Virus record (IMG/VR): IMGVR_UViG_3300013121_000010 | Location: 77,903-141,902 of that record | Origin: a virus | Lineage: Duplodnaviria > Heunggongvirae > Uroviricota > Caudoviricetes | DNA length: 64,000 bases | Direction: 5' to 3' (one strand) | Shown: piece after piece, positions 19,940-59,217 of the stretch | Position numbering within the stretch: position 1 is the first letter of the stretch | Layout: every line of letters starts with the position of its first letter | The notes under the pieces: model-generated | The model's input: only the letters and a program-made list of their open reading frames with translations | Told to the model about the DNA's origin: nothing | Database searches by the model: none | Position numbers and translations under genes: made by a program

Positions 19940-20216
19940 AAATTGTAATCTCTTTTGAATTTGGAAGAATAATTAATCCATAATCCCATTCTTGTAATAA
20001 GTAAAAAATACACATTGATATATTTATATCATTTGCTATACTTTCACTTACTAAAATTTCAAACTCTCTAGTTATTTCACAAGCATTATTTTTAAGATAG
20101 TCCTCACAAAAACTTTGTAAGTCACCGTGCAAATATTTAGAACGCCATTCGTTTGGAAGCTTTTCTTCCATAAGTTTGGTTACATGAGCTAAAACTTCAC
20201 TAGACGCCTGCGGCAT
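19917..20216 (-). CDS. hypothetical protein
   Basis: ORF only. Confidence 0.3.
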   Translation of the reverse strand: MPQASSEVLAHVTKLMEEKLPNEWRSKYLHGDLQSFCEDYLKNNACEITREFEILVSESIANDINISMCIFYLLQEWDYGLIILPNSKEITIYENNNLR

Positions 20217-21261
20217 TTCTTATACTCCTTGAACTCAAATCTACAGGAACAAAATCTTCTTGAAATTCAAAGAAATTCTCATAACCACTAATAAGCTTTT
20301 CATTACCTCTTGGGAAAACAGCAAATTTGTTATTGTATATAAAACAATATTCAAGTAATTTACCTAATGATTCTTTATGTCTTATTATTCTATTAGCAGT
20401 ATCAACACCTACTAAATAGGTAGAATTTATTGGGTATAAGTGAAATTTATCTATAAATAAAGGAGCTTTAGTAAAACAAACAGCATTTATATTATTTTCT
20501 TTATACAAAACACTTCTATTTCTATAATCAAGATAATCAAGATTAGGTTTATCGAAATTTTGTACAGATATGTCTAACGTTACTTTTTGTTTAAATTTAT
20601 TAGCCGAATAATTTATTATAGCACGATGACCATCATGTAATGGATTAAAAGAACCTGAATATATAAGATTGCTGCATTTTTCACTATTTATAATAACTTG
20701 CTTAAGAGCAAACTGTTCTTTAGTATCAAAAAATAATCTTGGTGTATCTTCTTCGTGCTGGAAATAGAATTTTTCAGATTTTACACAATCCCATTCATCT
20801 TCTGATAAATGAAAAGTTCCCATTTCAAGACCATCTAGAATTACTTCACTTACTAATTCTTCTTCTTCTTGTCTGCTTCTATTTTCAAGCAATTTAAAAC
20901 TTGTACTACAAATAACTTCACGTTCTAAATATGTAATGTGAAATGAGTGTTCTCTACCAACCCTCTCTACATTACTAGAACGCAAACTTGCACAACAAGC
21001 AAGAGAAACGCACTCATTGAAATCATAACCCAAATCTAACATCTTTTGCATACCGGCCATTGCAAGTTGTCTTGATGTTAGTTGTGAATTATATTTTTCA
21101 GGTTTAAAACCAAGAAAATCATCTACACATTTTGTAGAATATGGAACGTAAGCACCGGCAAAATAGCTTGACGCACCACCATTTCTTAGTATTTTACCTA
21201 TAGCTTCTGTGCCACCGCCAGTAATAGTCAGAAAAAGTTTTTTATCCATAATTAATACCAT
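20200..21261 (-). CDS. nicotinamide-nucleotide adenylyltransferase domain protein (NatV-like)
   Basis: GSFNPLHDGHRAII HxGH nucleotidyltransferase motif in the C-terminal half; lies beside nadV. Confidence 0.65.
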   Translation of the reverse strand: MVLIMDKKLFLTITGGGTEAIGKILRNGGASSYFAGAYVPYSTKCVDDFLGFKPEKYNSQLTSRQLAMAGMQKMLDLGYDFNECVSLACCASLRSSNVERVGREHSFHITYLEREVICSTSFKLLENRSRQEEEELVSEVILDGLEMGTFHLSEDEWDCVKSEKFYFQHEEDTPRLFFDTKEQFALKQVIINSEKCSNLIYSGSFNPLHDGHRAIINYSANKFKQKVTLDISVQNFDKPNLDYLDYRNRSVLYKENNINAVCFTKAPLFIDKFHLYPINSTYLVGVDTANRIIRHKESLGKLLEYCFIYNNKFAVFPRGNEKLISGYENFFEFQEDFVPVDLSSRSIRNAAGV

Positions 21262-27386: not shown

Positions 27387-27456
27387 AATTGTCTCCTTTA
27401 TTCAAAACATATTCTTCCCAGGTTTGCTGCTAAACTACTTCGCGTTATCTCCAAAG

Positions 27457-27527
27457 TGCGATATACCGTAATCGAAACGGTGACTAAAATTTGGTAAATT
27501 TTTATTTTTCCACTAAACTAATATCGC
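27457..27527 (-). tRNA. tRNA, anticodon uncertain (loop TTACCAA)
   Basis: Acceptor GCGATAT/ATATCGC; T-arm ACCGT-TTCGATT-ACGGT; AT-rich body. Confidence 0.4.
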
Positions 27528-35890: not shown

Positions 35891-36403
35891 TTAATTCTCC
35901 AATAGGCGATTAGTCGCTTGATACATTGCAATTGCAGAAGCACACCCAACATTTAGAGAGCGAACACTCCCATACTGTTTAATATAGATTGTAGCAGTAG
36001 CTACGTCAAGTATTTCCTGAGGAACACCAACATTTTCTTCGCCAAAAGCTAAAAGAAAGTATTCACTAGGAAAAGTAAAAGTCGAAATATCAACAGCACT
36101 ACCAATATTGTCAACAGCGATGATTGGAACGTTTCTTGGTAATTCATCTACTTCCTTAACATGTTTAAAATTTGTATAGTTTTGAGTACCTACAGCACCC
36201 CTTCTATCAAACTTTTTACGTCCATATATAATAACTTCTTTAGCAAGAAAGGCGTTGGCATTGCGGATTACGCTTCCTAAATTCAAATCACCTTGTATAT
36301 TAGCACATATAACACCATAGTTAAATCTTTTTTCATTTAAATCTGCTAATATAGCCTCTGTTTTCCAATATTTATAATAGTCGATTACGTTTCGGTTGTC
36401 CAC
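35891..36403 (-). CDS. SpoU/TrmH-family RNA 2-prime-O-methyltransferase
   Basis: SPOUT motifs: LLAFGEENVGVPQEIL and SLNVGCASAIAMYQ. Confidence 0.7.
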   Translation of the reverse strand: MDNRNVIDYYKYWKTEAILADLNEKRFNYGVICANIQGDLNLGSVIRNANAFLAKEVIIYGRKKFDRRGAVGTQNYTNFKHVKEVDELPRNVPIIAVDNIGSAVDISTFTFPSEYFLLAFGEENVGVPQEILDVATATIYIKQYGSVRSLNVGCASAIAMYQATNRLLEN

Positions 36404-36418
36404 TATGTTTTCCTTGCT

Positions 36419-36619
36419 TTAACAACTACCAAATCTATATGAAATAAATGCATATTTTTGTTTTATAAACCCTAGTTCACGCAAAGTTTCAATATCTTCT
36501 TCTGATACAGCGTCTACATCTTCTAAACAGATATATATAACATCATGTTCACATTGAATTGGATTTCTAGAATTTTCATATTTTAAGAAAATCTGTAAAG
36601 CTTTGATTAAATCATTCAT
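36419..36619 (-). CDS. hypothetical protein
   Basis: ORF only. Confidence 0.3.
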   Translation of the reverse strand: MNDLIKALQIFLKYENSRNPIQCEHDVIYICLEDVDAVSEEDIETLRELGFIKQKYAFISYRFGSC

Positions 36620-37160
36620 GGCTAAATCCTTTCTTACTATTTAAAATTTTCTGAATTTCTTCAAAAGAAAACGGTCTGTAAGTACCCAGGAGCTTAAATG
36701 CATTATCAACGCCAACATCCATGCTAAGCCTTTCTGGCATTATTTTATCTAGATTTTCTTCTGCATTTGAATGAGAATGACCATACAGATGAATTGAGCT
36801 ATGATGGGATTTTTCCCAGATAGCCATTGCATAATGACACAAGATTACATCTTGGTCACACACCTTGATTCTTTTGAGGTCAAAGCAAGGAAGAATATTA
36901 GAAAGTTCTTTTCTATGAGACTTATCGTGATTTCCATAAATAAGATTTATGTTTTTACAGTTTATTCTGTCTAGATAATGAGATATATTACGAAATGAAA
37001 AATCACCCAGGTGATATAGCATGTCAGTTGGTTTTACAACTTTATTAATTTCATAAAGTAAACTCTCATCCATATCATAAATAGATGAAAATGGTCTGTT
37101 ACAATACTCTATAATGTTTGTATGACCAAAGTGAGTGTCGGAAGTAAACCAAACTGTCAT
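36612..37160 (-). CDS. calcineurin-like metallophosphoesterase
   Basis: GDxxFR...GNHD...H motifs (LGDFSF, GNHDKSH). Confidence 0.7.
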   Translation of the reverse strand: MTVWFTSDTHFGHTNIIEYCNRPFSSIYDMDESLLYEINKVVKPTDMLYHLGDFSFRNISHYLDRINCKNINLIYGNHDKSHRKELSNILPCFDLKRIKVCDQDVILCHYAMAIWEKSHHSSIHLYGHSHSNAEENLDKIMPERLSMDVGVDNAFKLLGTYRPFSFEEIQKILNSKKGFSHE

Positions 37161-37673: not shown

Positions 37674-37675
37674 AG

Positions 37676-37746
37676 TACCCAGTAACAGAATCGAACTGTT
37701 TTAACTAAAATGTAAACTTAGTGTTTTACCATTAAACTAACCGGGC
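37676..37746 (-). tRNA. tRNA-Val (TAC)
   Basis: Acceptor GCCCGGT/ACTGGGT; D stem GTTT/AAAC; anticodon stem CTAAG/TTTAG with loop TTTACAT; T-arm AACAG-TTCGATT-CTGTT. Confidence 0.6.
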
Positions 37747-37752
37747 ATAGTT

Positions 37753-37830
37753 TAGAGAACAGTTAAACAGGTTAGTTGCTTACGCAACATTCAGTTACAA
37801 TGATTGAAGTAACCCATTTATTCACATCTA
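37753..37830 (-). repeat. conserved 78-nt element, copy 1 (second copy at 41185-41261), immediately upstream of a tRNA
   Basis: TAGAGAACAnTTAAACAGGTTAGT + hairpin + ATTGAAGTAACCCATTTATTCACATCTA; the hairpin is GTTGC-TTAC-GCAAC here and GTGC-TTTC-GCAC in copy 2, a compensatory change. Confidence 0.5.
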
Positions 37831-37842
37831 AACTACACTATC

Positions 37843-37870
37843 ATTATACCGCAAAAAAAATTTTTGTCAA
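37843..37870 (-). promoter_or_regulatory. sigma70-like promoter TTGACA-16-TATAAT (minus strand)
   Basis: Reverse complement reads TTGACAaaaattttttttgcggTATAAT. Confidence 0.5.
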
Positions 37871-37925: not shown

Positions 37926-38636
37926 ATGACACCCCTCTTTACACAACAAGAATATAAAATATGTAAGTTACACGAAAAGTTACCTTTAGAGTGTAAACAA
38001 TGTAAAAATAAATTTTTCCAAACAAAAAAACAAATAAATAAAGCTTATAGATTTTTATCTGGTGAGTATTTAGCGAACGGTATTACTTGTGATTTTTGTT
38101 CTAAAAAATGTTCTGGAAAACATAAAACTTTAATTAATAGGACTTATATTAACTGTAAAAACTGTAATAAGATAATTTATCTACAAAATAAAGCTGTAAA
38201 AACAAATAATTTTTGTTCTAAATCATGTGCTGTAACATATAATAATAAAAATAAAAAATATGGAACTAGGGTAAGTAAACTTGAAATTTGGCTACAAAAC
38301 CAATTAAAAATTAAATTTCCTAATCTAGTATTTGAATTCAACAAAAAAGAATATATAAAATCTGAACTTGATATTTATATACCTTCTTTGGGCTTAGCTT
38401 TTGAACTTAATGGAATCTTTCATTACGAACCAATTTACGGAGAAGAAAAACTAAAGTCTATACAAAATAATGATTTTAGAAAATTCCAAGCGTGTTTGGA
38501 AAACAATATAGAATTATGTATTATAAACACATCAAATCAAAAACATTTTACAGTAAAAAGTGGCCAAAAATATCTTGAAATTATCTATAATATCATTAAT
38601 GTTAAGTTAAAGGGAGATATATCAGAATCGAACTGA
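37926..38636 (+). CDS. free-standing endonuclease-like protein (DUF559/Vsr-like fold) with a Cys-rich N-terminus; probable homing endonuclease
   Basis: The only plus-strand gene in the tRNA cluster; ELDIYIPSLGLAFELNGIFHYE resembles the DUF559 motif V-D-F...IEvDG..H; RBS ggagaaaacgtATG; its 3-prime end overlaps tRNA-His. Confidence 0.45.
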   Translation: MTPLFTQQEYKICKLHEKLPLECKQCKNKFFQTKKQINKAYRFLSGEYLANGITCDFCSKKCSGKHKTLINRTYINCKNCNKIIYLQNKAVKTNNFCSKSCAVTYNNKNKKYGTRVSKLEIWLQNQLKIKFPNLVFEFNKKEYIKSELDIYIPSLGLAFELNGIFHYEPIYGEEKLKSIQNNDFRKFQACLENNIELCIINTSNQKHFTVKSGQKYLEIIYNIINVKLKGDISESN

Positions 38637-38685
38637 CACCTTTTCATTCACAGTGAACTATGCAGACCTCTACACTAATATCTCC
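38612..38685 (-). tRNA. tRNA-His (GTG)
   Basis: 8-bp acceptor GGAGATAT/ATATCTCC, consistent with the His G-1 position; anticodon loop CTGTGAA; T-arm GTCAG-TTCGATT-CTGAT. Confidence 0.55.
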
Positions 38686-38692
38686 ATACAAG

Positions 38693-38766
38693 TGGGCAAC
38701 TTGAGATTTGAACTCAAACTTTACTGCTTTTGAGACAGTTGCTTCTGCCAATTGAGCGAGTTACCC
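38693..38766 (-). tRNA. tRNA, anticodon tentatively CAA
   Basis: Acceptor GGGTAAC/GTTGCCC; T-arm TTGAG-TTCAAAT-CTCAA; anticodon stem ACTGT/GCAGT with loop CTCAAAA; short variable arm. Confidence 0.4.
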
Positions 38767-38782
38767 GTTTCTTATTATAAAA

Positions 38783-38857
38783 TTCGGGGGTAAGGAATCG
38801 AACCTTAGCATTCTTCGTTCAAAGCGAAGTAGGATTACCAACAACCCCAGCCCCCGA
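38783..38857 (-). tRNA. tRNA-Gln (TTG)
   Basis: Anticodon stem CTTCG/CGAAG with loop CTTTGAA; T-arm TAAGG-TTCGATT-CCTTA. Confidence 0.55.
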
Positions 38858-38858
38858 G

Positions 38859-38929
38859 TACCCACTACAGGAATCGAGCCTGTTTCTTAACTTTGTCACA
38901 GTTACATTCTACCATTGAACTAAGCGGGT
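38859..38929 (-). tRNA. tRNA-Val (GAC)
   Basis: Anticodon stem TAACT/AGTTA with loop GTGACAA; T-arm ACAGG-CTCGATT-CCTGT. Confidence 0.5.
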
Positions 38930-38950
38930 GTGTTATTTTCAATAACTTAG

Positions 38951-39023
38951 TGACTGCTCTCAGAATCGAACTGAGTTCCGAAGTGCTTCAAACTTCTGCT
39001 ATAACCATATCAGCTAAACAGTC
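38951..39023 (-). tRNA. tRNA-Phe (GAA)
   Basis: D stem GCTG/TAGC; anticodon stem GAAGT/ACTTC with loop TTGAAGC; T-arm CTCAG-TTCGATT-CTGAG. Confidence 0.6.
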
Positions 39024-39029
39024 ATTTGT

Positions 39030-39195
39030 ATTTCTTTAATGTCTAATACTAAAGACAGGGGCGGTAGGCCCTCCACCAGTTAGATAAATCTAACAGTGAC
39101 GCATACGGGTACTGCCCCCGTCTATTCTGGTTGAAAGCCAGACTACCTCACTTGATGTATAATGCGCCGTCTGTGGGACAGTTTCCATCCCACTT
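39030..39195 (-). ncRNA. GC-rich structured RNA immediately downstream of the Ro60/Rsr gene; candidate Y-RNA-like ncRNA with its own promoter
   Basis: About 50% GC in a 30% GC genome; hairpins GUGGGA-UGGAAACUG-UCCCAC, ACGGG-GGCAGUA-CCCGU and GUUAGAU-UUAUCUAAC; no credible ORF; the promoter at 39201-39229 fires into it. Confidence 0.4.
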
Positions 39196-39200
39196 GTTTT

Positions 39201-39229
39201 ATTATACCAGGAACTTAGCGTTCTGTCAA
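39201..39229 (-). promoter_or_regulatory. sigma70-like promoter TTGACA-17-TATAAT (minus strand) inside the 3-prime end of the Ro60 gene
   Basis: Reverse complement reads TTGACAgaacgctaagttcctggTATAAT. Confidence 0.55.
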
Positions 39230-40780
39230 GTCCGACATTTCCTTTGCATATCTTAAAATTCCGTCGCTCCATCCACCTAAGATATAAGTTCTGTCGTATA
39301 CTTCTGGCATAATAGTATCAGTATATCCAGCGACCTGCACAAGATATACATTTACCTTTGGATTGACGTTCTTTCTATAGGTGTTCACCAACATAGGAAC
39401 ATCAATACAATATGAATGATACCATAAATACTTTGAGTATTCATCTGGGTTCCTACCATAAAGTCCACCATGACCAGCTTGCATATCACTATAGATGAAA
39501 ACATTATCCCAATGTTCAGCTTTAGCTATAGCATCACGCCAAAACAACCAAATTCCATTTTCAGTTGATTTACCAATTCTGTTAGCTAAACTATTAGCAT
39601 TTTTTAAATCATCAAAAATACTAGAATTTTTGCGAATACTGAAAGTTTCCAGTTTATCACCAAAAACACCTAAATATCCATCATTAGAAACCTTACCAGT
39701 AATAATACCAGTTAAGTTCGCAATTTCAGATACCTTAACAGAACCATATTGACTAGTAGTTGTACCTTGTGCCGAACCACTATTATCGCAAAGCGACATA
39801 GTACGTCCTTTAAACTGAGGTAGTGAATGCAAGGAAATATTCAGGCAGTTTTCAATTGCATCCAAAACACTACCAGGAGCATTTACAGCTTTCAGTTCTT
39901 TGTAAGCCGTCCAATACCTAAACGGCAGTTGCTTACCTTTTTCGGCAGTTTTAACCAACTTATCTAGAACAACTTCCATATTAGCATTATTTTCAACAAA
40001 ATTTCTCAAATTGCGAAGTAATGCCATGTGCCCCATAACTGGAACGCATTCATCCCAACTTTTACCTTGAGAACGCATACTTTCCCAAGTTTCAGTATTT
40101 TTCAAAGTACCCTTTACAAGCCCATCAATAGCTGGTGTAGGAACAGGGTGAACCAAGTTAATAACATCTACTGTCTTAACTTCACGATTCTCCATTTTGT
40201 ACTTAGCAAGTTCATACTCACTAAATGTTGTTAAAACATAAGCTAAGGCTCGCTTTAAAGAGCTAGGGATAGCCACGCCTTTGAATGCGGACTTGTGATA
40301 AGCCACACAAACAGCAGGTTCATCCGCCCTCTTAACTATTTCCTTTGCATATCTGCGTATTAATTGAGTGCCTTTACTACCTTTATGGTTTGCAGCCCTT
40401 ACCAAAATAACTTGTGGTGTAGTTCTGATATTATCAGTATTACGCAAATGAGCGGCAAGTTCTAGAGTTTGTTTAACACTAAAATCTAAAGCCTTATCAA
40501 TACACTTCTCAAGAGTATTCTTAGCAGTATCACCTTCTAGCTCTACCAAAACCTTACCAAGTTGCTTAGTTAGGTCAAACTTAACCTTAAAAGTAGGAGA
40601 AGCCTTTTGAGTTTCTCCATAATAAGTTGGTTCGCCAAAGAAACAGCTTGCTGCTGCAACACGAAGTTTATGAATTGGATTGGAAATATCAAAGGATGTT
40701 CCATCCATAAAATTACGATGAGAGTTCTTATGAACTCTCTTTTCGTTTAGTGAGTTTACTCTTTTAGAATTTACAGCCAT
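39215..40780 (-). CDS. rsr: Ro60/Rsr orthologue (TROVE domain plus C-terminal vWA with MIDAS)
   Basis: N-terminal TROVE-like ...AAASCFFGEPTYYGE...; C-terminal vWA with DxSGS MIDAS (LCDNSGSAQG); 521 aa, matching Ro60 domain order and size. Confidence 0.6.
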   Translation of the reverse strand: MAVNSKRVNSLNEKRVHKNSHRNFMDGTSFDISNPIHKLRVAAASCFFGEPTYYGETQKASPTFKVKFDLTKQLGKVLVELEGDTAKNTLEKCIDKALDFSVKQTLELAAHLRNTDNIRTTPQVILVRAANHKGSKGTQLIRRYAKEIVKRADEPAVCVAYHKSAFKGVAIPSSLKRALAYVLTTFSEYELAKYKMENREVKTVDVINLVHPVPTPAIDGLVKGTLKNTETWESMRSQGKSWDECVPVMGHMALLRNLRNFVENNANMEVVLDKLVKTAEKGKQLPFRYWTAYKELKAVNAPGSVLDAIENCLNISLHSLPQFKGRTMSLCDNSGSAQGTTTSQYGSVKVSEIANLTGIITGKVSNDGYLGVFGDKLETFSIRKNSSIFDDLKNANSLANRIGKSTENGIWLFWRDAIAKAEHWDNVFIYSDMQAGHGGLYGRNPDEYSKYLWYHSYCIDVPMLVNTYRKNVNPKVNVYLVQVAGYTDTIMPEVYDRTYILGGWSDGILRYAKEMSDLTER

Positions 40781-41109
40781 TTTTAAATCTCCTAATCCTA
40801 GATTTCTAACCTTTCTTTAATAAGTTTTGTAAAATAATCGAATGCTATCTGTTTAGCTTTTTCAATACCTTCATCTACTGGACAAAGAACAATTTTTGTT
40901 TTTATAACTAGAAATTGGGTCCATTACCTTATAACATTCAGAAAGAGTATGTGGATACCATCCTTTAAAGATTTTCATATTATCTAACCTTTCATTTTAA
41001 AAGATATTCTTAGAGAACATAACTATAAAGTGTTTTTAATCCCAATTTTTTGATGGACGGGATTTTCAATTTTAAATGAAGTAACTCTATATCTCACATC
41101 TAAAAATAA

Positions 41110-41184
41110 GTGGACCTTGAGGGAGTCGCACCCTCTATCAGAATTTGCAGGATTCCAAATTTACCTCTAAAAAGGCCCATTTTG
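41110..41184 (-). ncRNA. tRNA-like RNA with non-canonical T-loop TGCGACT and anticodon-like loop CCTGCAA (Cys-like GCA); lies upstream of rsr
   Basis: Acceptor GGGCCTT/AAGGTCC; T-arm GAGGG-TGCGACT-CCCTC (G in place of the universal U55); C at position 33 of the anticodon loop. Confidence 0.45.
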
Positions 41185-41261
41185 TAGAGAACAATTAAAC
41201 AGGTTAGTGCTTTCGCACGACTAATTAATTCTAATTGAAGTAACCCATTTATTCACATCTA
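41185..41261 (-). repeat. conserved 78-nt element, copy 2
   Basis: See copy 1 at 37753-37830. Confidence 0.5.
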
Positions 41262-41265
41262 CAAG

Positions 41266-41338
41266 CACCAATAACGGGAATCGAACCCGCCGCGATAGGA
41301 TAGACAGTCCTACATCACCCCCAGATGAACTTATTGGT
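41266..41338 (-). tRNA. tRNA-Asp (GTC)
   Basis: Anticodon stem TAGGA/TCCTA with loop CTGTCTA; T-arm GCGGG-TTCGATT-CCCGT. Confidence 0.5.
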
Positions 41339-41349
41339 ATATCAAACAG

Positions 41350-41433
41350 TCTCGGAGACAGGATTTGAACCTGCATGGTCATTAAGACCGGAAACTTCTA
41401 AGGTTTCTGCGTATCCCTTTCCGCCACTCCGAG
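41350..41433 (-). tRNA. tRNA-Leu (TAG), type II
   Basis: Anticodon stem GAAAC/GTTTC with loop CTTAGAA; variable-arm hairpin GGTC-TTAAT-GACC; T-arm GCAGG-TTCAAAT-CCTGT. Confidence 0.55.
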
Positions 41434-41546
41434 ATAAAATTAAGCTAGTAGGTCAGGTAACGCTCCTGCAACAACGGATTAACAGTCCGCCCGAAAAACT
41501 TCTTTCATCCTACTAATATGAGAGGAATCCTCTCATTTGTTCTTTC

Positions 41547-41575
41547 ATTATACCGGAAGCTTTCCTTCCTGTCAA
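41547..41575 (-). promoter_or_regulatory. sigma70-like promoter TTGACA-17-TATAAT (minus strand) with a structured roughly 95-nt leader before tRNA-Leu
   Basis: Reverse complement reads TTGACAggaaggaaagcttccggTATAAT; the leader holds hairpin GAGAGGAUUCCUCUC and a long-range stem TAGTAGG...CCTACTA. Confidence 0.55.
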
Positions 41576-41589
41576 GCCCCATCTCTAAA

Positions 41590-41960
41590 AATTTTTAAAG
41601 CGTAGCTTTACCATAAAACGGAGTTTTTAACTCATTAAACCTATCAGCATCAAAGTTTAAAATAAAATCCGTAGTACCATCATCAAAGATATATTCTTTA
41701 TCGCCGATTGATACTGAACATGTACGCACACTTATTATAAGCAACGTATTTACCAACTTCGATAGAACTTCCAGCTAAATCTAACATATCTTTACAACTT
41801 TCTTTTCCTGAAAACCTTTATATGTTTCTTTAAGTGTAACACTTAAAACTTTAGAGTCATCACCGTTAGAATCTTTAACGAGAACCTCAAGTTCTCCGTC
41901 TAGCTTTTCAAGTTCTTTGATTAAGTCTTTAACCAACATAGTGCTATACACTCCTTACAA
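41590..41960 (-). pseudogene. decayed fragments of the CPIALAIKEK-family / MLDSVGKK-family gene pair
   Basis: Minus-strand frames encode ...FDADRFNELKTPFYGKATL (matches the C-terminus of ORF 43889-44185) and MLDLAGSSIEVGKYVAY (matches the N-terminus of ORF 43563-43895), interrupted by stops. Confidence 0.45.
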
Positions 41961-42053
41961 CTCAAGAGTTACGACAAACGGGGTTTTTAGTAACCAGTCG
42001 TTACCTTCATCAAAGTTATTAACAAAATTCTTTTTCTTTTTTGCTTGAAAATA

Positions 42054-42140
42054 AACAGTCCCGAATAAAGGAATTGAACCTCTTGACCGCCACCATACTT
42101 AATAGGTCAACTGTTTTACAGACAGCCGTATGGGATAGCC
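42054..42140 (-). ncRNA. tRNA-Tyr (GTA)-like gene lacking a canonical D-arm, with a large variable stem-loop (paralogue of 44204-44288)
   Basis: Anticodon stem GCTGT/ACAGT with loop CTGTAAA; only about 10 nt (ATCCCATACG) between acceptor and anticodon stem; variable stem TTGACC/GGTCAA. Confidence 0.4.
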
Positions 42141-42174
42141 GGGGATTAAGTAGCGCAATCAGGACTCGAATCAG

Positions 42175-42247
42175 CACCATCAGCAGGAGTCGAACCCGCA
42201 TAGAACTGTTTAGAACACAGACACACTATCCGTTGTGTTATGATGGC
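42175..42247 (-). tRNA. tRNA-Arg (TCT)
   Basis: D stem ACAC/GTGT; anticodon loop GTTCTAA; T-arm GCGGG-TTCGACT-CCTGC. Confidence 0.5.
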
Positions 42248-42347
42248 GTTTTCTTAGGTATTCCTTTTAATTTTTATTCCCTAAGTGGCAAAACTTTAGT
42301 ATTAGAAGGCTTCTGTGACCAACATAACTAAAATCTTGTCAAAGTGT

Positions 42348-42420
42348 TAGATACTGGAGTCGCACCAATCAGTCCTACCTTATGAGGGTTGGTTGAGCCT
42401 ACGCCCATCTGGCTTGTTCA
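42348..42420 (-). ncRNA. tRNA-Met (CAT)-like with T-loop TGCGACT and a mismatched acceptor stem
   Basis: Anticodon stem AACC/GGTT with loop CTCATAA; T-arm ATTGG-TGCGACT-CCAGT; paralogue at 44488-44560. Confidence 0.4.
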
Positions 42421-42423
42421 TTC

Positions 42424-42452
42424 ATTATACCGGAAGCATCGCTTCCTGTCAA
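42424..42452 (-). promoter_or_regulatory. sigma70-like promoter TTGACA-17-TATAAT (minus strand)
   Basis: Reverse complement reads TTGACAggaagcgatgcttccggTATAAT. Confidence 0.55.
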
Positions 42453-42453
42453 G

Positions 42454-42524
42454 TCCCCATTGCTGGAATCGAGCCAGCTTCTTATCCGTGTCATAGATAC
42501 ATTCTACCATTGAACTAAACGGGG
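42454..42524 (-). tRNA. tRNA-Val (GAC), second copy
   Basis: Anticodon stem TATCT/GGATA with loop ATGACAC; T-arm GCTGG-CTCGATT-CCAGC. Confidence 0.45.
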
Positions 42525-42529
42525 GTTAA

Positions 42530-42610
42530 GCAGGTTTGTGACAAATCGAATGCCCTAGCTTTCGCAACTGTTTTGGAGGCAGTTTCCCATCCCACTGGGG
42601 AGCAAACCTG
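42530..42610 (-). tRNA. tRNA-Trp (CCA) with an 8-bp terminal helix and a long variable region
   Basis: Terminal stem CAGGTTTG/CAAACCTG; D stem CCCC/GGGA; anticodon loop CTCCAAA; paralogue at 44561-44640 has terminal stem CATATTTG/CAAATATG (compensatory). Confidence 0.45.
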
Positions 42611-43230
42611 TATTACATTGGAAGGATTATTGATTACCTTCAACCATCCTTAAATCCGATATTGTTCAGCCATACACTTATAGAGTAGCTAGTTCTATAA
42701 TTAACGTGTAGCTCGTTTGGTTACAAGCAAAGGAAAGCAGACTTCAACATTGTTCTTATTCCTTACCACCCTCACATCAGGTTGGCCAACCCAATGCTAT
42801 TAGTGCTTTATACCGAATTTACATTCTGAACGTTAGTAGGACACTTTTCAGTGTACTCCCAACTGTATTTAGGGCAGTCAACCCTATTTTCTACCACAAT
42901 GTAAGTAGCCCCGCATGGAAGTCGAACCATGTTCCCAAGATTAACCTACTACTATTAGTTTCCTAATCAGAAATATTTTTATTTCTTTGTAGTCTGGACT
43001 ATATCATCAACCAAATTGGTTGTTTCGCGTTTAGTCTCTGAGGAACCCTTTCGGTTTCCTGCTGATTGCCCAATATTTTAGATTGTCACGATTGTAATCG
43101 TACTAAAATCTCTAAGGGGTTTCCAGCATATAGCGAAATTCATTTTACATATTACTATGTAAACGCTCTTATTTTATGGAATCAAGTCTTGTGCTAATCC
43201 AGTTAAAGCTTCGGAGCCATTTTCTTCTTA

Positions 43231-43259
43231 CATTATATCAGATGCTTCGCATCTTGTCA
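43231..43259 (-). promoter_or_regulatory. sigma70-like promoter TTGACA-17-TATAAT (minus strand) firing into the ORF-free 42610-43225 region
   Basis: Reverse complement reads TTGACAagatgcgaagcatctgaTATAAT. Confidence 0.55.
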
Positions 43260-43553
43260 AGTTCTCTCTATTGTAAAACTAATTTCTCTCAATTTGTTAA
43301 AATTTGCTGTATCAAAATTCTTAATAAACTTATCAACTTTATTACAATCTTTAATAGAAGTAACTTTATATCTCTTCTTAGTATATCTATCTATAAATAT
43401 TTCAATAGACCCAGAATCACCAACAATTGCTGTTTTATGTAGCTTTTCTTTAATAGCTAAAGCAACTGGGCAAAATTGACATATATCCAGTGACTTTATT
43501 TTATTTTTAGCCTGTTCAATATGCTTACGCTTAACTTCAATTTTAATACTCAT
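43257..43553 (-). CDS. CPIALAIKEK-motif family protein (paralogue A2)
   Basis: KRKHIEQAKNK...CQFCPVALAIKEKLHK; three intact paralogues plus one decayed copy. Confidence 0.5.
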   Translation of the reverse strand: MSIKIEVKRKHIEQAKNKIKSLDICQFCPVALAIKEKLHKTAIVGDSGSIEIFIDRYTKKRYKVTSIKDCNKVDKFIKNFDTANFNKLREISFTIERT

Positions 43554-43562
43554 AATAAATCC

Positions 43563-43895
43563 TTAATCGCTAAAATCTAACACACCTTTATGTAACCACT
43601 TTTCTATACACTTTTTAAGTGTACATGAATTTGGTATACCATTAAAAAAATCTTTTACAATTTCTAGCGGTTCAACCACTACAAACTTTCCTGCTTCTTT
43701 AAAAGTTGTAATAATTTTAATTGTTAGTTGTGGTTTATAGTCTACGCTAAGTCTTTGAATTTTAACCTTATTTTTATTTTCATCAATATCAATAACTTTT
43801 CCGGTTATCATTCCATATTCAGCGTCAACATTACCTTTACCCCCATAAGAGATAAAATCACCAATATTAACCTTTTTACCAACAGAATCTAACAT
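43563..43895 (-). CDS. hypothetical protein (MLDSVGKK family)
   Basis: Translationally coupled to the upstream paralogue; a fragment homologue lies in the 41590-41960 pseudogene. Confidence 0.45.
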   Translation of the reverse strand: MLDSVGKKVNIGDFISYGGKGNVDAEYGMITGKVIDIDENKNKVKIQRLSVDYKPQLTIKIITTFKEAGKFVVVEPLEIVKDFFNGIPNSCTLKKCIEKWLHKGVLDFSD

Positions 43896-44185
43896 AGTTT
43901 TACAACTTCCAATGTAAGATAAAATGGTGTTTTCAATTCATTATATTTTTCACCATCAAAAGATTCTACAAAATCTTTAACGTGCAAATTGCCATAACTA
44001 TAACGCTTATCATCTATGAAGATTCTAGCACCACTATCAACATCAACCCTCTTATGAGTTTTCTCTTTAATAGCTAGAGCAATAGGGCAGCATGAGCTTA
44101 AAACAATACCATTTTTATGTCTAATTTTCTTTGCTCTTTCAATATGGCGTTTAAGAACTTTTACTTTAATCAACTTCATACCCAT
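43889..44185 (-). CDS. CPIALAIKEK-motif family protein (paralogue A1)
   Basis: KRHIERAKKI...SCCPIALAIKEKTHK. Confidence 0.5.
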   Translation of the reverse strand: MGMKLIKVKVLKRHIERAKKIRHKNGIVLSSCCPIALAIKEKTHKRVDVDSGARIFIDDKRYSYGNLHVKDFVESFDGEKYNELKTPFYLTLEVVKLC

Positions 44186-44477: not shown

Positions 44478-44487
44478 GTGGCAGATA

Positions 44488-44560
44488 TTGGAGTCGCACC
44501 AATCAAATTAACCTTATGAGGGTTAGTCGAGCCTTCGCCCATCTGCAAGCATATTTGTGA
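44488..44560 (-). ncRNA. tRNA-Met (CAT)-like with T-loop TGCGACT (paralogue of 42348-42420)
   Basis: Anticodon stem AACC/GGTT with loop CTCATAA; T-arm ATTGG-TGCGACT-CCAAT. Confidence 0.4.
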
Positions 44561-46116: not shown

Positions 46117-46392
46117 CTAAACAAACTTCCTTACATTAAATTGTTCTCTTAATAAGAGAAGTAAATTTTCAGTAATGTATTGAGAAGATTCAGCTTCCAT
46201 CACAGCCATTACAGGTTCATCAGGCAGAAAATTAATAATGCGATTTAAAACATCTTCAAGCTCCTTTTTATTTTCAGAAGCAGCTTGATAAGCGGCAGTT
46301 TCTAAAACTGCAATAAACTGTTTAGAAGAAAGACAATGATTACATTTACCACCACTGTCTAAACAATGAATGCACTTAATTGTATTTTTCAT
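46117..46392 (-). CDS. hypothetical protein
   Basis: CxxC...CxxC N-terminus. Confidence 0.35.
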   Translation of the reverse strand: MKNTIKCIHCLDSGGKCNHCLSSKQFIAVLETAAYQAASENKKELEDVLNRIINFLPDEPVMAVMEAESSQYITENLLLLLREQFNVRKFV

Positions 46393-46734
46393 AAGTGGAC
46401 CGGGCGGGTACTGCCCCCGCGTACTAAAATAAATTTAAAGATTTGAATAATATACAGGTTTCTTTAAGATTTTAAGGTAATCTTATAACCTACCTTACGA
46501 TTTGAATTTTAACTATTAAAGGTTTTAAGTTAAAACCACTCTAATTAAAGAGCAAATGAGTAATCGACGTTTTTGTTGCTCTTACGAGCAACTTTAGTGC
46601 TTGTTGCACTCAAACCACGAACACTGAACATACTATCGTTTGCTGTTACTTTTTTGACTGTTTTTAGGTAGCCTCAGCCTCTACCACCTGCCAGCACTTT
46701 AAATTTAAGCTAGGCGAATCTATTTCCGGCCCAT

Positions 46735-58533: not shown

Positions 58534-59217
58534 TTATTTTATACAACCAACCTTTCCATTTTCTACATCAACATAAGCAAGTTCATTCAAACAAATAAAT
58601 CTTGTATTATTTATTACTTTATCAAAATTAAGATGGTGATGACCAAAAATCCAATTATCTACAACTAAATTAGTATATATTTCATTTAATAATCTAGAAG
58701 TGTAACTTGGTTTTATTTCACTACAATTAGAATATTTTGTTATCAAGTGTTTTTCATCAAGTAAAAATGACGGGCATTCATGTGTAATCATTATGTGGAC
58801 ATACTTTTTCTCATTAAAATATTCAATAGCCTTATTTCCTTGTTCATTTGTTAATTCTTCATTAACCCAATAATCATATCCAACAGTCCTACAAAATCTA
58901 TCTATAGAAAAAGCACCACGAACAAAAGAAAAACTATGACTATCAATATTATAGGTTCCATAATCGCCTAAACTATGAGGTATAATTCTATCATAATCAT
59001 CGTGATTACCTAAAACTACCCTATGTCTAAATTCGTCAACTTGACTCATCTTTTTGTGAAAATATTTGCCGTATCCCATATCGCCGACCTGAATACTATA
59101 GCGACACCCCTTTATTAAATCAAGGTATGTTCTTTTGGTTGCGTCTGGATTAAAAGAAAAACCATCCTTGCGATGCTCATCTATAAGATTGTGTACATCA
59201 CCAATTATTCTAACCAT
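58534..59217 (-). CDS. calcineurin-like metallophosphoesterase
   Basis: GDVHN, GDMGYG, GNHDDYD and GHHH motifs. Confidence 0.7.
   Translation of the reverse strand: MVRIIGDVHNLIDEHRKDGFSFNPDATKRTYLDLIKGCRYSIQVGDMGYGKYFHKKMSQVDEFRHRVVLGNHDDYDRIIPHSLGDYGTYNIDSHSFSFVRGAFSIDRFCRTVGYDYWVNEELTNEQGNKAIEYFNEKKYVHIMITHECPSFLLDEKHLITKYSNCSEIKPSYTSRLLNEIYTNLVVDNWIFGHHHLNFDKVINNTRFICLNELAYVDVENGKVGCIK

What the first reader, a model, noticed from the sequence alone, without database searches (positions are those of the whole stretch)
39030..41275. Phage-encoded Ro60/Rsr orthologue inside a tRNA array, with GC-rich structured RNA and tRNA-like genes on both flanks (candidate Ro60 / Y-RNA module)
ORF 39215-40780 has an N-terminal TROVE-like region (FFGEPTYYGE) and a C-terminal vWA domain with a DxSGS MIDAS motif, the Ro60/Rsr architecture. 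Directly downstream (39030-39195) is an ORF-free segment of about 165 nt at roughly 50% GC in a 30% GC genome. It contains several stable hairpins and is driven by its own consensus sigma70 promoter at 39201-39229. Directly upstream (41110-41184) is a tRNA-like gene with a non-canonical T-loop, followed by a conserved 78-nt element. Bacterial Y RNAs sit next to rsr and carry tRNA-like domains (the Salmonella rsr-yrlBA-rtcBA and Deinococcus arrangements are established knowledge). This locus has the same logic inside a T4-like tRNA cluster, together with an RNA ligase and a SpoU methyltransferase elsewhere in the window.
Basis: partly seen in the sequence, partly recalled or inferred. Interest (0 to 1): 0.8.

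Follow-up and report, generated by a model that had tools for sequence, protein, structure and literature searches.

The report
Phage Ro60 gene with Y RNAs

Summary
ORF 39215-40780 (-) is a genuine Ro60/Rsr orthologue. It scores above the Pfam TROVE cut-off, has a DNSGS MIDAS motif, and its AlphaFold model matches only Ro60 structures over full length. The closest solved relative is Thermus phage phiLo Ro60.

The Y RNAs are the "conserved 78-nt element" and its paralogues:
- Ya, 41264-41182
- Yc, 37833-37750
- Yb, 41106-41007 (weaker)

I built a covariance model only from rsr-adjacent elements of other phages. It hits Ya and Yc at E of about 4e-9. It hits 51/51 viral and 63/63 bacterial matches on the rsr strand, nearly all directly upstream of rsr, including in Deinococcus. 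Both helices covary.

These Y RNAs are short and lack a tRNA-like domain. They abut tRNA genes, so tRNA-processing enzymes probably release them.

The GC-rich segment 39030-39195 is not a Y RNA. Its core is a tRNA-Glu(UUC)-shaped cloverleaf whose T arm is identical to that of the phage's own tmRNA. The upstream tRNA-like gene is a divergent tRNA-Ala(UGC) with G3:U70.

Phage Ro60/Y-RNA pairs are already published, so this is a new member of a known kind.

The parts
39215..40780 (-). rsr: Ro60/Rsr orthologue, 521 aa (TROVE HEAT-repeat ring plus C-terminal vWA domain with DNSGS MIDAS motif at residues 332-336)
   Evidence: Pfam TROVE 39.2 bits. PHROG 850 'RNA-binding protein', E = 8e-36. More than 3700 homologues, all carrying PF05731. 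PDB sequence hit to phiLo Ro60 9KOP, E = 1.6e-15, with DNSGS aligned to DVSGS. AlphaFold model pLDDT 79.6. The top 13 Foldseek PDB hits are all Ro60 proteins, TM 0.68/0.76 to 9KOP.
41182..41264 (-). Ya: short Y RNA gene. Layout: closing stem UUGUAGA/UCUACAA, 5' box UGUGA, second stem ending in GG, GUUACUUC box, apical hairpin with GAAA loop, 3' box UUCUC. It starts 1 nt after tRNA-Asp and ends 3 nt before the tRNA-Ala-like gene.
   Evidence: Model R1, built without any window sequence, scores 42.4 bits, E = 3.6e-9 at 41267-41178. Coordinates. Fold.
41007..41106 (-). Yb: probable third, more diverged Y RNA copy. It has UUUAGA/UCUAAG, UGUGA, a stem UAUAGAG/CUUUAUA, GUUACUUC, a 46-nt apical insert with its own hairpin, and UUCUC.
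   Evidence: Repeat family D5, 76% identical to Ya over 38 nt. All boxes are present and the MFE fold has the same two-stem closure. The covariance model aligns it wrongly and gives only 11.4 bits, so this copy rests on motifs and fold only.
37750..37833 (-). Yc: short Y RNA gene, 1.4 kb downstream of rsr. It starts about 7-10 nt after the -10 box of promoter 37870-37843 and ends 3 nt before tRNA-Val(UAC).
   Evidence: R1 scores 42.2 bits, E = 4.2e-9 at 37836-37746. Fold -18.7 kcal/mol, z = -2.8. Sequence. The apical hairpin GUUGC-GUAA-GCAAC versus GUGC-GAAA-GCAC in Ya keeps the pairing.
41547..41575 (-). Perfect sigma70-type promoter, the likely start of the unit tRNA-Asn, tRNA-Leu, tRNA-Asp, Ya, tRNA-Ala-like, Yb, small ORF, rsr
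   Evidence: 12/12 consensus match. No terminator-like site on the - strand between it and rsr. Co-transcription is inferred.
37843..37870 (-). Perfect sigma70-type promoter driving Yc and tRNA-Val
   Evidence: 12/12 consensus match with a 16-nt spacer. Sequence.
41265..41338 (-). tRNA-Asp(GUC). Its 3' end abuts the 5' end of Ya.
   Evidence: ARAGORN and Rfam tRNA 32.9 bits.
41111..41178 (-). Divergent tRNA-Ala(UGC)-like gene between Ya and Yb. It has G3:U70 and A73, a reduced D arm, C at position 33 and T loop UGCGACU.
   Evidence: ARAGORN finds it at 90% thresholds only. It is not found by Rfam tRNA. G3:U70 was read from the sequence.
37675..37746 (-). tRNA-Val(UAC). Its 5' end abuts the 3' end of Yc.
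   Evidence: ARAGORN and Rfam tRNA 59.7 bits.
39201..39229 (-). Perfect sigma70-type promoter overlapping the rsr stop codon. It drives the downstream tRNA operon (Glu-like, Phe, Val, Gln, Leu, His). It is not a Y RNA promoter.
39097..39168 (-). Its T arm ACGGG-GGCAGUA-CCCGU is of the tmRNA type. It is not a Y RNA. It is preceded by leader hairpin 39193-39173 and followed by about 70 nt of unexplained hairpins.
   Evidence: The unconstrained MFE is a cloverleaf, -23.5 kcal/mol, z = -2.5. A strict geometry scan gives 16 hits in the window, namely 15 known tRNAs plus this one, and 0 hits in 240 random sequences. Rfam tRNA and ARAGORN do not call it. The 13-mer is shared with the tmRNA T arm.
46320..46364 (-). 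Possible minimal Y-like hairpin (GUUUAGA-CAGUGG...UUUCU-UCUAAAC) lacking the GUUACUUC box, 28 nt after the 3' end of the tmRNA gene. Weak evidence.
   Evidence: R1 scores 14.9 bits, E = 0.025 with filters off on 9.5 kb. Fold. A strong R1 hit sits in the same place after the tmRNA of viral contig L033.

Best explanation
The locus is a phage Ro60/Rsr and Y-RNA module built into tRNA operons.

Protein. The 521-aa protein is a ring-shaped Ro60 orthologue.

RNA partners. Its partners are two, probably three, short Y RNAs (Ya, Yc and probably Yb). They belong to the family that sits next to rsr in bacteria and phages. Each has this layout:
- A closing helix formed by the 5' and 3' ends.
- A conserved asymmetric internal loop: 5' N-R-G-Y-G-R, here UGUGA where most members have CAGUGA, opposite 3' UUCUC. 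By homology this is the Ro60 binding site.
- A second helix that ends at a conserved GGUUACUUC box.
- A variable apical module, here a small hairpin rather than the tRNA-like domain of YrlA.

Expression and processing (inferred). Host RNA polymerase transcribes these RNAs from consensus sigma70 promoters together with the tRNAs. Ya and Yb lie upstream of rsr in the same unit. Yc has its own promoter. RNase P and the tRNA 3'-end enzymes would then release the RNAs, because the genes abut tRNA genes within 0-3 nt.

Function (inferred from the Deinococcus, Salmonella and phiLo systems). The Y RNA gates the Ro60 ring and tethers it to an exoribonuclease such as host PNPase. This would redirect structured-RNA decay or quality control during infection. 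It sits alongside the phage's tRNAs, tmRNA, RNA ligase and SpoU methylase.

Shown here: protein identity, RNA family membership, covarying structure and synteny.
Not shown: expression, processing, binding and function.
For: Protein:
- TROVE domain and MIDAS motif.
- Full-length structural match to Ro60 proteins only.

RNA family:
- A recurrent 5' box/GGUUACUUC/UUCUC element lies upstream of rsr in most of the 33 IMG/VR rsr loci and in five tandem copies in Bacillus phage G.
- Covariance model R1 was built from 48 such elements and no window sequence. It hits the window only at Ya (42.4 bits, E = 3.6e-9) and Yc (42.2 bits, E = 4.2e-9).
- All 51 hits in viral loci are on the rsr strand.
- All 63 hits in 71 bacterial rsr loci are on the rsr strand, nearly all within about 250 nt upstream of rsr. 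These include Deinococcus xinjiangensis and Sorangium.

Structure:
- 83.5-87.3% of cells are paired, against about 55% in shuffles and 40-51% in slid controls.
- 206-251 cells carry double changes, and 13 of 14 pairs show compensatory changes.

Synteny with tRNAs:
- About 10 of 49 relatives' elements also abut a tRNA(-like) gene within 12 nt.

Literature:
- YrlA-type Y RNAs were reported in 254 bacteria and 22 phages, near rsr and on the same strand, with a 5' GNCGAA-type box and a YUAY box (PMC4201824).
- PMC12135203, citing that paper, names Bacillus phage G among phages with Y RNA-like ncRNAs.
- Phage phiLo Ro60 binds two upstream Y-like RNAs and host PNPase (PMC12135203).
Against: - There are no expression or binding data.
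- Rfam has no model that recognises any of these RNAs, so there is no curated-family confirmation.
- The window's 5' box is UGUGA. It is not the commonest CAGUGA and not the published GNCGAA.
- Yb is not recognised by the model.
- Single-sequence folding z-scores are modest, -0.9 to -2.8.
- The unbiased test of own against foreign 3' strands is only moderately discriminating: -20.1 versus -15.7 kcal/mol, with the own partner best in 10 of 51 cases.
- The 3' strands in the seed alignment were chosen by pairing energy, which inflates the pair counts.
- The effector of a Y RNA without a tRNA-like module is unknown.
Confidence: 0.8

Rival explanations
1. The GC-rich segment 39030-39195, with its own promoter, is the Y RNA, and the flanking tRNA-like genes are its tRNA-like domains, as in YrlA.
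For: - The segment is directly adjacent to rsr on the same strand.
- It is ORF-free and 47% GC.
- It is structured, z = -2.3, and lies behind a perfect promoter.
- Its cloverleaf is too aberrant for Rfam tRNA or ARAGORN to call, so it could be a tRNA mimic rather than a tRNA.
Against: - The rsr-linked model gives no hit on this strand, even with filters off.
- There is no GNCGAA or NRGYGR...GGUUACUUC...UUCUC arrangement.
- The architecture is a stand-alone cloverleaf with its own 7-bp acceptor stem and a canonical CU-UUC-AA anticodon loop. It is not a 5'/3' stem enclosing T-AS-D modules.
- Its GC content equals that of ordinary tRNA blocks.
- The promoter is one of seven identical-type cassettes that head tRNA clusters.
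Confidence: 0.05
2. The repeated elements Ya, Yb and Yc are structured spacers or leaders of tRNA operons, acting as processing or stability signals or mobile regulatory cassettes. They work without Ro60, and their resemblance to rsr-linked RNAs reflects shared ancestry only.
For: - Yc lies 1.4 kb from rsr in a separate transcription unit.
- All three abut tRNA genes.
- They are AT-rich with modest folding z-scores.
- The region is full of repeated promoter cassettes and duplicated blocks.
Against: - The conserved boxes and both helices are maintained against a model trained on more than 25 unrelated genomes, in which the element is tied to rsr: 114 of 114 hits on the rsr strand.
- R1 finds no such element anywhere else in the 64-kb window, despite about 30 tRNA genes.
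- Members of this family in Deinococcus sit where Rsr-bound Y RNAs were mapped experimentally in D. radiodurans (PMC4201824).
Confidence: 0.1
3. The Ro60 gene is a recently acquired passenger, as auxiliary genes in tRNA arrays often are, and has no dedicated RNA partner. It acts alone on misfolded RNAs.
For: - Ro60 can act without Y RNA in 23S rRNA maturation in D. radiodurans (cited in PMC4201824).
- The tRNA array contains other insertions, such as an HNH endonuclease and small ORFs.
Against: - Two high-scoring Y RNA genes are present, one directly upstream in the same unit.
- The same arrangement is seen in most relatives.
Confidence: 0.05

Closest known systems
Bacterial Y RNAs next to rsr: YrlA/YrlB of Salmonella Typhimurium and Mycobacterium smegmatis, Yrn1/Yrn2 of Deinococcus radiodurans (Chen et al. 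2013, 2014; PMC4201824)
   Same: - Encoded within a few hundred nt of rsr on the same strand.
- A long stem formed by the 5' and 3' ends.
- A conserved 5'-strand box at the position of GNCGAA, followed by a YUAY-containing box (GGUUACUUC).
- Several Y RNAs per locus, processed from a common precursor.
- The model trained on phage elements also finds the short element directly upstream of rsr in Deinococcus xinjiangensis. The YrlA-type element beside it shows the same boxes by eye.
   Different: - The window's RNAs lack the tRNA-like (T-AS-D) module that defines YrlA, so they resemble the short YrlB/Yrn2 class.
- The 5' box is UGUGA.
- The genes are interleaved with real tRNA genes.
- One copy is detached from rsr and has its own promoter.
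Thermus phage phiLo Ro60 with Yrl1/Yrl2 (NAR 2025, PMC12135203; PDB 9KOP, 9L5Y)
   Same: - The closest solved structure to the window protein.
- A phage-encoded Ro60 with two Y-like RNAs upstream.
- Shown in vitro to bind the RNAs and host PNPase.
   Different: - Only about 21% protein identity.
- The phiLo RNAs were picked by a CGAA motif.
- R1 gives only one weak hit in that locus, and it lies downstream of the gene (E = 0.039).
- There is no tRNA array around the phiLo gene.
Bacillus phage G gp540 (TROVE protein)
   Same: - The best GenBank phage relative of the protein, 38.8% identity over full length.
- Five tandem short elements of the same RNA family lie upstream, and tRNA genes lie downstream.
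- Cited as having Y RNA-like RNAs (PMC12135203, citing PMC4201824).
   Different: - A jumbo phage of a Gram-positive host.
- The 5' box is (A/U)GCGG.
- The elements form one array and are not interleaved with tRNAs.
Salmonella rsr-yrlBA-rtcBA RNA repair operon (PMC7790460)
   Same: Ro60 and Y RNAs are genetically linked to RNA repair functions and to tRNA damage. The window also carries an RNA ligase, a metallophosphoesterase and a SpoU methylase.
   Different: - There is no RtcB, RtcA or RtcR here.
- The ligase is of the Rnl type and lies 21 kb away.
- The locus has sigma70 promoters, not sigma54 control.
Annotated phage genomes with a 'Ro-like RNA binding protein' inside a tRNA array (for example Arthrobacter phage Atuin, phage csAssE-Sib)
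   Same: They show the same gene context of rsr between tRNA genes.
   Different: No Y RNA is annotated in those records. R1 gives only a borderline hit in Atuin (E = 0.049), directly before tRNA-Trp.

Membership tests
Ro60 / Rsr (TROVE protein) | TROVE (HEAT-repeat ring) domain | tested here: met
   PF05731 scores 39.2 bits against a cut-off of 23. The AlphaFold model matches Ro60 chains over about 500 columns, TM 0.56-0.68 normalised to the query, and the top 13 hits are all Ro60.
Ro60 / Rsr (TROVE protein) | C-terminal von Willebrand factor A domain with a DxSGS MIDAS motif | tested here: met
   DNSGS at residues 332-336 aligns with DVSGS of phiLo Ro60. The model has an alternating beta/alpha fold over residues 323-502. 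Lower-ranked Foldseek hits are vWA domains.
Ro60 / Rsr (TROVE protein) | Binds Y RNA on the outer ring surface and misfolded RNA ends in the central hole | not testable with these tools
   This needs EMSA, co-immunoprecipitation or a structure.
Bacterial/phage Y RNA (elements Ya, Yc, Yb) | Encoded close to rsr on the same strand | tested here: met
   Ya and Yb lie 227-484 nt upstream of rsr. Yc lies 1.4 kb downstream. All are on the - strand. Family-wide, 114 of 114 model hits are on the rsr strand.
Bacterial/phage Y RNA (elements Ya, Yc, Yb) | Long stem formed by pairing of the 5' and 3' ends, interrupted by a conserved internal loop or bulge | tested here: met
   There are two helices of 7 modelled pairs each. 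Across the family, 83.5-87.3% of cells are paired and 13 of 14 pairs show compensatory change. Ya and Yc align end to end with the model.
Bacterial/phage Y RNA (elements Ya, Yc, Yb) | Conserved 5'-strand Ro-binding box (published as GNCGAA(N)G; GGUCCGA in vertebrates) | tested here: inconclusive
   There is no exact GNCGAA in the window. At the equivalent position the family has N-R-G-Y-G-R (CAGUGA, AGCGG, UGCGG) and the window has UGUGA. Equivalence to the published box is inferred. The published alignments were not available.
Bacterial/phage Y RNA (elements Ya, Yc, Yb) | Physical association with Ro60 | not testable with these tools
   No expression or binding data exist for this uncultured phage.
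YrlA subfamily (tRNA-mimicking Y RNA) | Internal tRNA-like module (T arm, acceptor-like stem-loop, D arm) enclosed by the Y stem | tested here: not met
   The apical regions of Ya, Yc and Yb are 32-46 nt with one small hairpin and no T-arm or D-arm sequence. Relatives such as L009, L008 and Deinococcus L083 do carry the module. The window RNAs are therefore short Y RNAs, YrlB/Yrn2-like, and not YrlA.
   R1 gives no hit on the - strand, with or without filters. There is no box. Rfam gives no Y-type hit.
tRNA (39168-39097, Glu-UUC shaped) | Cloverleaf geometry with 7/3-4/5/5-bp stems and a 7-nt anticodon loop with U33 and R37 | tested here: met
   The MFE fold is a cloverleaf. It is the only hit of a strict geometry scan that is not an annotated tRNA, and 240 random sequences gave 0 hits.
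tRNA (39168-39097, Glu-UUC shaped) | Conserved elbow nucleotides (G18 G19 in the D loop; T54 Psi55 C56 R57 A58 in the T loop), as scored by tRNA models | tested here: not met
   The T loop is GGCAGUA and the D loop is UCAAGUGA. There is no Rfam tRNA hit even at E <= 10 on 196 nt. ARAGORN does not call it at 70% thresholds. It is therefore filed as tRNA-like, not as a confirmed tRNA.
tRNA-Ala (41178-41111) | G3:U70 wobble pair and A73, the AlaRS identity set (established knowledge) | tested here: met
   The acceptor stem is GGGCCUU/AAGGUCC followed by A. The anticodon is UGC, but position 33 is C and the D arm is reduced, so function in decoding is uncertain.

The most novel reading that the evidence does not exclude
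In this phage the tRNA-mimic part of a YrlA-type Y RNA may have been split off. Each short Y RNA is made as a dimer with the tRNA(-like) gene it abuts. Under this reading the aberrant cloverleaves are not decoding tRNAs. Those are the Ala-UGC gene, which has G3:U70 but C33, and the Glu-UUC gene, which has the tmRNA-type T arm. They would be detachable effector or decoy RNAs that work with Ro60, for example by presenting tRNA-shaped baits to host anticodon nucleases or to the tRNA/tmRNA machinery. That would make the whole tRNA, tmRNA, Y RNA and Ro60 block one RNA-defence unit.
Probability: 0.1. Interest if true: 0.65.

Novelty: new member of a known kind. Interest (0 to 1): 0.38.

Why it matters
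It adds a Ro60/Y-RNA system from an uncultured T4-like phage with rIIA/rIIB, an intein-bearing RNR, a tmRNA and about 30 tRNAs.

Practical results:
- Exact coordinates for the Y RNAs.
- A covariance model that finds the short Y RNA class next to rsr in more than 100 phage and bacterial loci. Rfam recognised none of the phage loci scanned (the bacterial loci were not scanned), and in the phage records inspected no such RNA is annotated.
- A concrete processing hypothesis: tRNA-punctuated release of Y RNAs.

The true Y RNAs are AT-rich and inconspicuous.

The biology, a Ro60 tethered by a Y RNA, is already established in bacteria and one phage, so the gain is incremental.

Tried and rejected
- Rfam gave only tRNA and tmRNA hits (plus one tRNA-Sec-model hit on tRNA-Ser) and no Y family. 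I ran it at gathering thresholds on the whole window, at E <= 10 on 38500-42800 and on 39020-39215.
- Rfam on 32 viral rsr loci also gave no Y family.
- blastn of 38900-41500 against 50,697 phage records found no match, so no close relative exists for comparative folding of the GC-rich segment.
- The nearest protein homologue is 61% identical. The look-up of encoding contigs has no record of the protein.
- A regex search for the published GNCGAA(N)G box found none near rsr in the window.
- The supplement of Chen et al. 2014, which holds the YrlA alignments, and two Wolin-lab reviews are not held. I therefore could not compare directly with the published models.
- A MAFFT alignment of the three window copies misplaced the 3' half of Yb and was not used.
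- MAFFT also left register errors in the 3' strand of the seed alignment. These were partly cured by realigning to the model.
- The test of own against foreign 3' strands was only moderately discriminating.
- I scanned IMG/VR for the 15-mer of the odd T arm, hoping to find relatives of the phage. It instead found more than 119 contigs with alphaproteobacterial-type permuted tmRNA genes. This explains the T loop but gives no relative of the GC-rich segment.
- I considered and rejected the idea that Ya, the tRNA-Ala-like gene and Yb form one composite YrlA. Ya closes on itself, and so does Yb.


Full report
**1. The observation**

The window is 30.7% GC. Between about 37.6 and 46.8 kb it carries a dense array on the minus strand. 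ARAGORN finds 18 tRNA genes there and 26 in the whole window. Rfam finds a tmRNA at 46732-46393.

Inside the array lies ORF 39215-40780 (-), 521 aa. It has FFGEPTYYGE at residue 47 and DNSGS at residue 332.

- The 166-nt segment 39030-39195 is 47% GC, the same as the neighbouring tRNA blocks at 42-47%.
- A perfect TTGACA-17-TATAAT sits at 39229-39201.
- A tRNA-like gene at 41178-41111 has T loop UGCGACU.
- Next to it is a repeated element. Repeat families D5, D10 and D16 show it at 41264-41182 and again at 37833-37750. A more diverged copy lies at 41106-41007.

**2. The protein**

- Pfam TROVE scores 39.2 bits against a cut-off of 23.
- PHROG 850 'RNA-binding protein' gives E = 8e-36.
- More than 3700 homologues all carry PF05731, and the best non-self hit is 61% identical.
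- The only PDB sequence relatives are the Ro60 of Thermus phage phiLo (9KOP/9L5Y, E = 1.6e-15). The alignment places DNSGS on DVSGS.
- An AlphaFold model (pLDDT 79.6, pTM 0.75) has Ro60 chains as its 13 best Foldseek PDB matches. These are phiLo, Xenopus, human and Deinococcus Rsr, aligned over about 500 columns. vWA domains follow lower in the list.

The protein is a Ro60/Rsr orthologue.

**3. Where the Y RNAs are**

Rfam recognises no Y-type RNA in the window or in 32 viral rsr loci.

I read the sequence upstream of rsr in 33 IMG/VR contigs that encode relatives of the protein. An obvious recurrent element appeared, often in 2-5 tandem copies on the rsr strand. Its layout is:
- a short 5' stem strand
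- N-R-G-Y-G-R, mostly CAGUGA
- a second stem strand ending in GG
- UUACUUC
- a variable insert
- (AC)ACC plus the complementary strand
- UUCUC
- the closing strand

Bacillus phage G encodes the closest GenBank phage relative of the protein (38.8% identity). PMC12135203, citing PMC4201824, lists it as a phage with Y RNA-like RNAs. It has five such elements upstream of its TROVE gene gp540.

The window's repeated element has exactly this layout:
- Ya: UUGUAGA-UGUGA-AUAAAUGG-GUUACUUC ... ACCUGUUUAAU-UGUUCUC-UACAA
- Yc and Yb follow the same pattern.

**4. An independent test**

I excised the variable apical parts of 48 elements from other phage contigs and phage G, with no window sequence included. 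I aligned them (A2) and built covariance model R1 with two 7-bp helices.

- In the 64-kb window, on both strands, R1 finds two significant matches. These are 41267-41178 (42.4 bits, E = 3.6e-9) and 37836-37746 (42.2 bits, E = 4.2e-9). Nothing else is below E = 1.
- With filters off on 37.5-47 kb, it again finds nothing on the minus strand of the GC-rich segment.
- Across 39 sources, all 51 hits with E <= 0.05 lie on the rsr strand. Nearly all are just upstream of rsr. They include elements that were not in the seed, such as one in Xylella phage Usme.
- In 71 bacterial rsr loci fetched from GTDB genomes, the phage-trained model gives 63 hits. All are on the rsr strand and nearly all lie within about 250 nt upstream of rsr. 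The hosts include Sorangium, Polyangium, Nannocystis, Prosthecobacter and Deinococcus xinjiangensis.
- In that Deinococcus locus the short element sits next to a canonical YrlA-type RNA with T arm, acceptor-like hairpin and D arm. That RNA shares the same GGCAGUGAG and GUUCUCC boxes.

Deinococcus is the genus in which Rsr-bound Y RNAs upstream of rsr were first demonstrated (PMC4201824).

**5. Structure support**

On the seed alignment:
- 83.5% of cells pair, against 55.5% in shuffles and 44-51% when partners are slid.
- 206 cells have changes on both sides.
- The covariation score is 0.69 against 0.22.

On the model-fitted alignment of 51 hits, 87.3% of cells pair and 251 cells have changes on both sides.

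Caveats:
- The seed 3' strands were chosen by pairing energy.
- The second alignment is fitted to the model.
- An unbiased control searched each 5' strand against the full 150-nt downstream region of every member. It gave a smaller but real effect: own -20.1 versus foreign -15.7 kcal/mol, with the own partner best in 10 of 51 cases where about 1 is expected.

**6. What kind of Y RNA**

Published YrlA RNAs carry a permuted tRNA-like module and a 5' GNCGAA(N)G box followed by a YUAY box (PMC4201824).

The window's RNAs keep the YUAY-containing box (GUUACUUC). They have UGUGA at the position of the 5' box. They carry only a 32-46-nt apical region with one small hairpin, GUGC-GAAA-GCAC in Ya and GUUGC-GUAA-GCAAC in Yc. 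They are therefore short Y RNAs of the YrlB/Yrn2 type and not YrlA.

Yb has all the boxes and the same two-stem fold. The model does not score it (11.4 bits in a wrong alignment). I call it probable.

**7. Organisation and likely mechanism**

On the minus strand the order is:
- promoter 41575-41547
- tRNA-Asn(GUU) 41515-41444, found only at relaxed ARAGORN thresholds
- tRNA-Leu
- tRNA-Asp 41338-41265
- Ya 41264-41182
- tRNA-Ala-like 41178-41111
- Yb 41106-41007
- a 35-codon ORF
- rsr 40780-39215

No terminator-like site lies between the promoter and rsr.

Yc starts about 7-10 nt after the -10 box of promoter 37870-37843. It ends 3 nt before tRNA-Val 37746-37675.

Gaps of 0-3 nt to tRNA genes suggest that RNase P and the tRNA 3'-end enzymes cut the Y RNAs out of the tRNA precursors. 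Yc would keep a primary 5' end. In other viral loci about 10 of 49 elements also abut a tRNA(-like) gene, for example three in L007 and one before the annotated tRNA-Trp of Arthrobacter phage Atuin.

The functional step is carried over from the Deinococcus, Salmonella and phiLo work (PMC4201824, PMC12135203, PMC7790460) and is not shown here. In that work the Y RNA binds the Ro60 ring through the conserved 5' strand, gates it and tethers an exoribonuclease such as PNPase.

The surrounding genes fit an RNA-maintenance toolkit:
- SpoU methylase 35891-36403
- metallophosphoesterases 36612-37160 and 58534-59217
- RNA ligase 62307-63407
- a tmRNA

rIIA/rIIB homologues support a T4-like phage.

**8. 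The GC-rich segment**

Transcription from 39229-39201 should start near 39194.

- The RNA begins with a hairpin (39193-39173).
- A 72-nt stretch follows (39168-39097) whose unconstrained MFE is a perfect cloverleaf, -23.5 kcal/mol, z = -2.5.
- The cloverleaf has a 7-bp acceptor stem, a 5-bp anticodon stem, loop CU-UUC-AA, a 4-nt variable region and a 5-bp T stem.

I ran a strict geometry scan that ignores sequence apart from U33 and R37. It finds 16 sites in the window, all on the minus strand. Fifteen are annotated tRNAs and the sixteenth is this one. It finds none in 40 random 64-kb sequences and 200 random 9.5-kb sequences.

The D and T loops are non-canonical, and neither Rfam tRNA nor ARAGORN calls it.

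Its T arm shares the 13-mer GGGGGCAGUACCC with the T arm of the phage's own tmRNA. That gives 2 occurrences against 0.1 expected. The same T arm occurs in at least 119 IMG/VR contigs. Most of the low-GC contigs I inspected carry it in the acceptor piece of permuted, alphaproteobacterial-type tmRNA genes with ANDNFAP...ALAA tags.

The segment is therefore a tRNA-Glu-shaped gene with a tmRNA-type elbow, at the head of the operon Glu-like, Phe, Val, Gln, Leu, His. It is not a Y RNA.

Three things remain open:
- whether it decodes
- why it has that T arm
- what the about 70 nt after it (39096-39030) do

The upstream tRNA-like gene has a UGC anticodon, G3:U70 and A73, which is the alanine identity set. 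It also has C33 and a reduced D arm.

**9. Comparison with what is known, and verdict**

Phage Ro60 genes are annotated in many genomes. My tblastn found 97 phage records, several with the gene inside a tRNA array. Y RNAs next to them were reported for 22 phages (PMC4201824). One phage RNP has been studied structurally (PMC12135203). Jumbo-phage surveys also list the TROVE protein among RNA-repair functions (PMC7824862).

This locus is a new member of that kind. Three modest features set it apart:
- Its Y RNAs are all of the short type.
- They are punctuated by tRNA genes.
- One copy is detached from rsr.

The assignment of the RNA is wrong.

Noticed in passing
window 46393-46732 (-), T arm 46406-46418; compare 39107-39119: The phage encodes a one-piece tmRNA (Rfam 50.1 bits; ARAGORN misses it) whose T arm GCGGG-GGCAGUA-CCCGC has a non-canonical T loop. 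The same T arm is found in at least 119 IMG/VR contigs. Most of the low-GC contigs inspected carry it in the acceptor piece of permuted, alphaproteobacterial-type tmRNA genes with ANDNFAP..ALAA tags. This hints at a low-GC alphaproteobacterial host. The tRNA-Glu-shaped gene next to rsr carries the identical T arm, which is unexplained.
   Followed up: partly
window 46320-46364 (-); L033 271-351: A weak Y-like hairpin (CAGUGG ... UUUCU boxes, no GUUACUUC; E = 0.025) lies 28 nt after the 3' end of the tmRNA gene. In viral contig L033 a strong Y RNA hit (30 bits) also follows the tmRNA gene directly.
   Followed up: partly
window, - strand: 45448-45420, 44477-44449, 43260-43232, 42452-42424, 41575-41547, 39229-39201, 37870-37843: There are seven perfect TTGACA-N16/17-TATAAT promoters. 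Six of these, plus a near-perfect seventh at 45564-45536, belong to the 44-nt repeat family D1, most with a small inverted repeat in the spacer; the 37870 promoter is outside that family. They resemble the promoter-early stem-loop (PeSL) cassettes described for T4-type phages (recalled from memory, not checked).
   Followed up: no
window 41444-41515, 41111-41178, 44478-44547, 42342-42411, 42530-42609 (all -): Several divergent tRNA(-like) genes are missed at default thresholds: Asn(GUU), Ala(UGC), two CAU-anticodon genes with T loop UGCGACU, and a second Trp copy. The block 42.1-42.6 kb is a diverged duplicate of 44.2-44.6 kb (repeat families D8, D11, D17). A Tyr(GUA)-like sequence with a long variable arm may lie near 42063-42150 (seen by eye only).
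   Followed up: partly
L025 about 3760-3880; L028 about 3040-3170 and 3580-3700: Some rsr-linked Y RNAs carry a non-permuted tRNA body (D arm, anticodon arm, T arm) in which the Y stem takes the place of the acceptor stem. This differs from the published permuted YrlA order (T arm, acceptor-like hairpin, D arm). The Rfam tRNA model hits these with model positions 5-66 only.
   Followed up: partly
L034 (Bacillus phage G) 1754-2440: Five tandem short Y-type elements lie upstream of the TROVE gene gp540. None is annotated in the GenBank record.
   Followed up: partly
L023 660-955: A viral contig encoding a Ro60 relative also carries a bacterial class A RNase P RNA gene (Rfam 185 bits), about 3 kb upstream of rsr and its three Y elements. 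tmRNA genes occur near rsr in L005, L028 and L033.
   Followed up: no
window 37926-38636 (+): This is the only sizeable plus-strand ORF in the array. It is an HNH endonuclease-like protein (PHROG 559, E = 3e-8) and its end overlaps tRNA-His (38612-38684) on the opposite strand. It is probably a homing endonuclease insertion.
   Followed up: no
window 4297-8349 (-): The ribonucleotide reductase large subunit is interrupted by an intein with a LAGLIDADG endonuclease domain.
   Followed up: no
window 21526-24006, 20200-21261 (-): A nicotinamide phosphoribosyltransferase (NAMPT) lies next to a cytidylyltransferase-like protein. This may be an NAD salvage pair, as seen in some large phages.
   Followed up: no
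window 43257-43553, 43889-44185, 41595-41756 (-): Paralogous small ORFs with a CP[VI]ALAIKEK motif and an NELKTPFY C-terminus are scattered between the tRNA clusters. Their function is unknown.
   Followed up: no
window 27456-27527 (-): ARAGORN calls a tRNA-Gly with anticodon ACC (A at position 34), which is unusual for bacteria and phages.
   Followed up: no
L165 1200-1214, 1377-1391 (giant-virus MAG contig): Two tRNA-shaped genes in a giant-virus MAG carry the same CGGGGGCAGUACCCG T arm as the phage tmRNA and the Glu-like gene.
   Followed up: no
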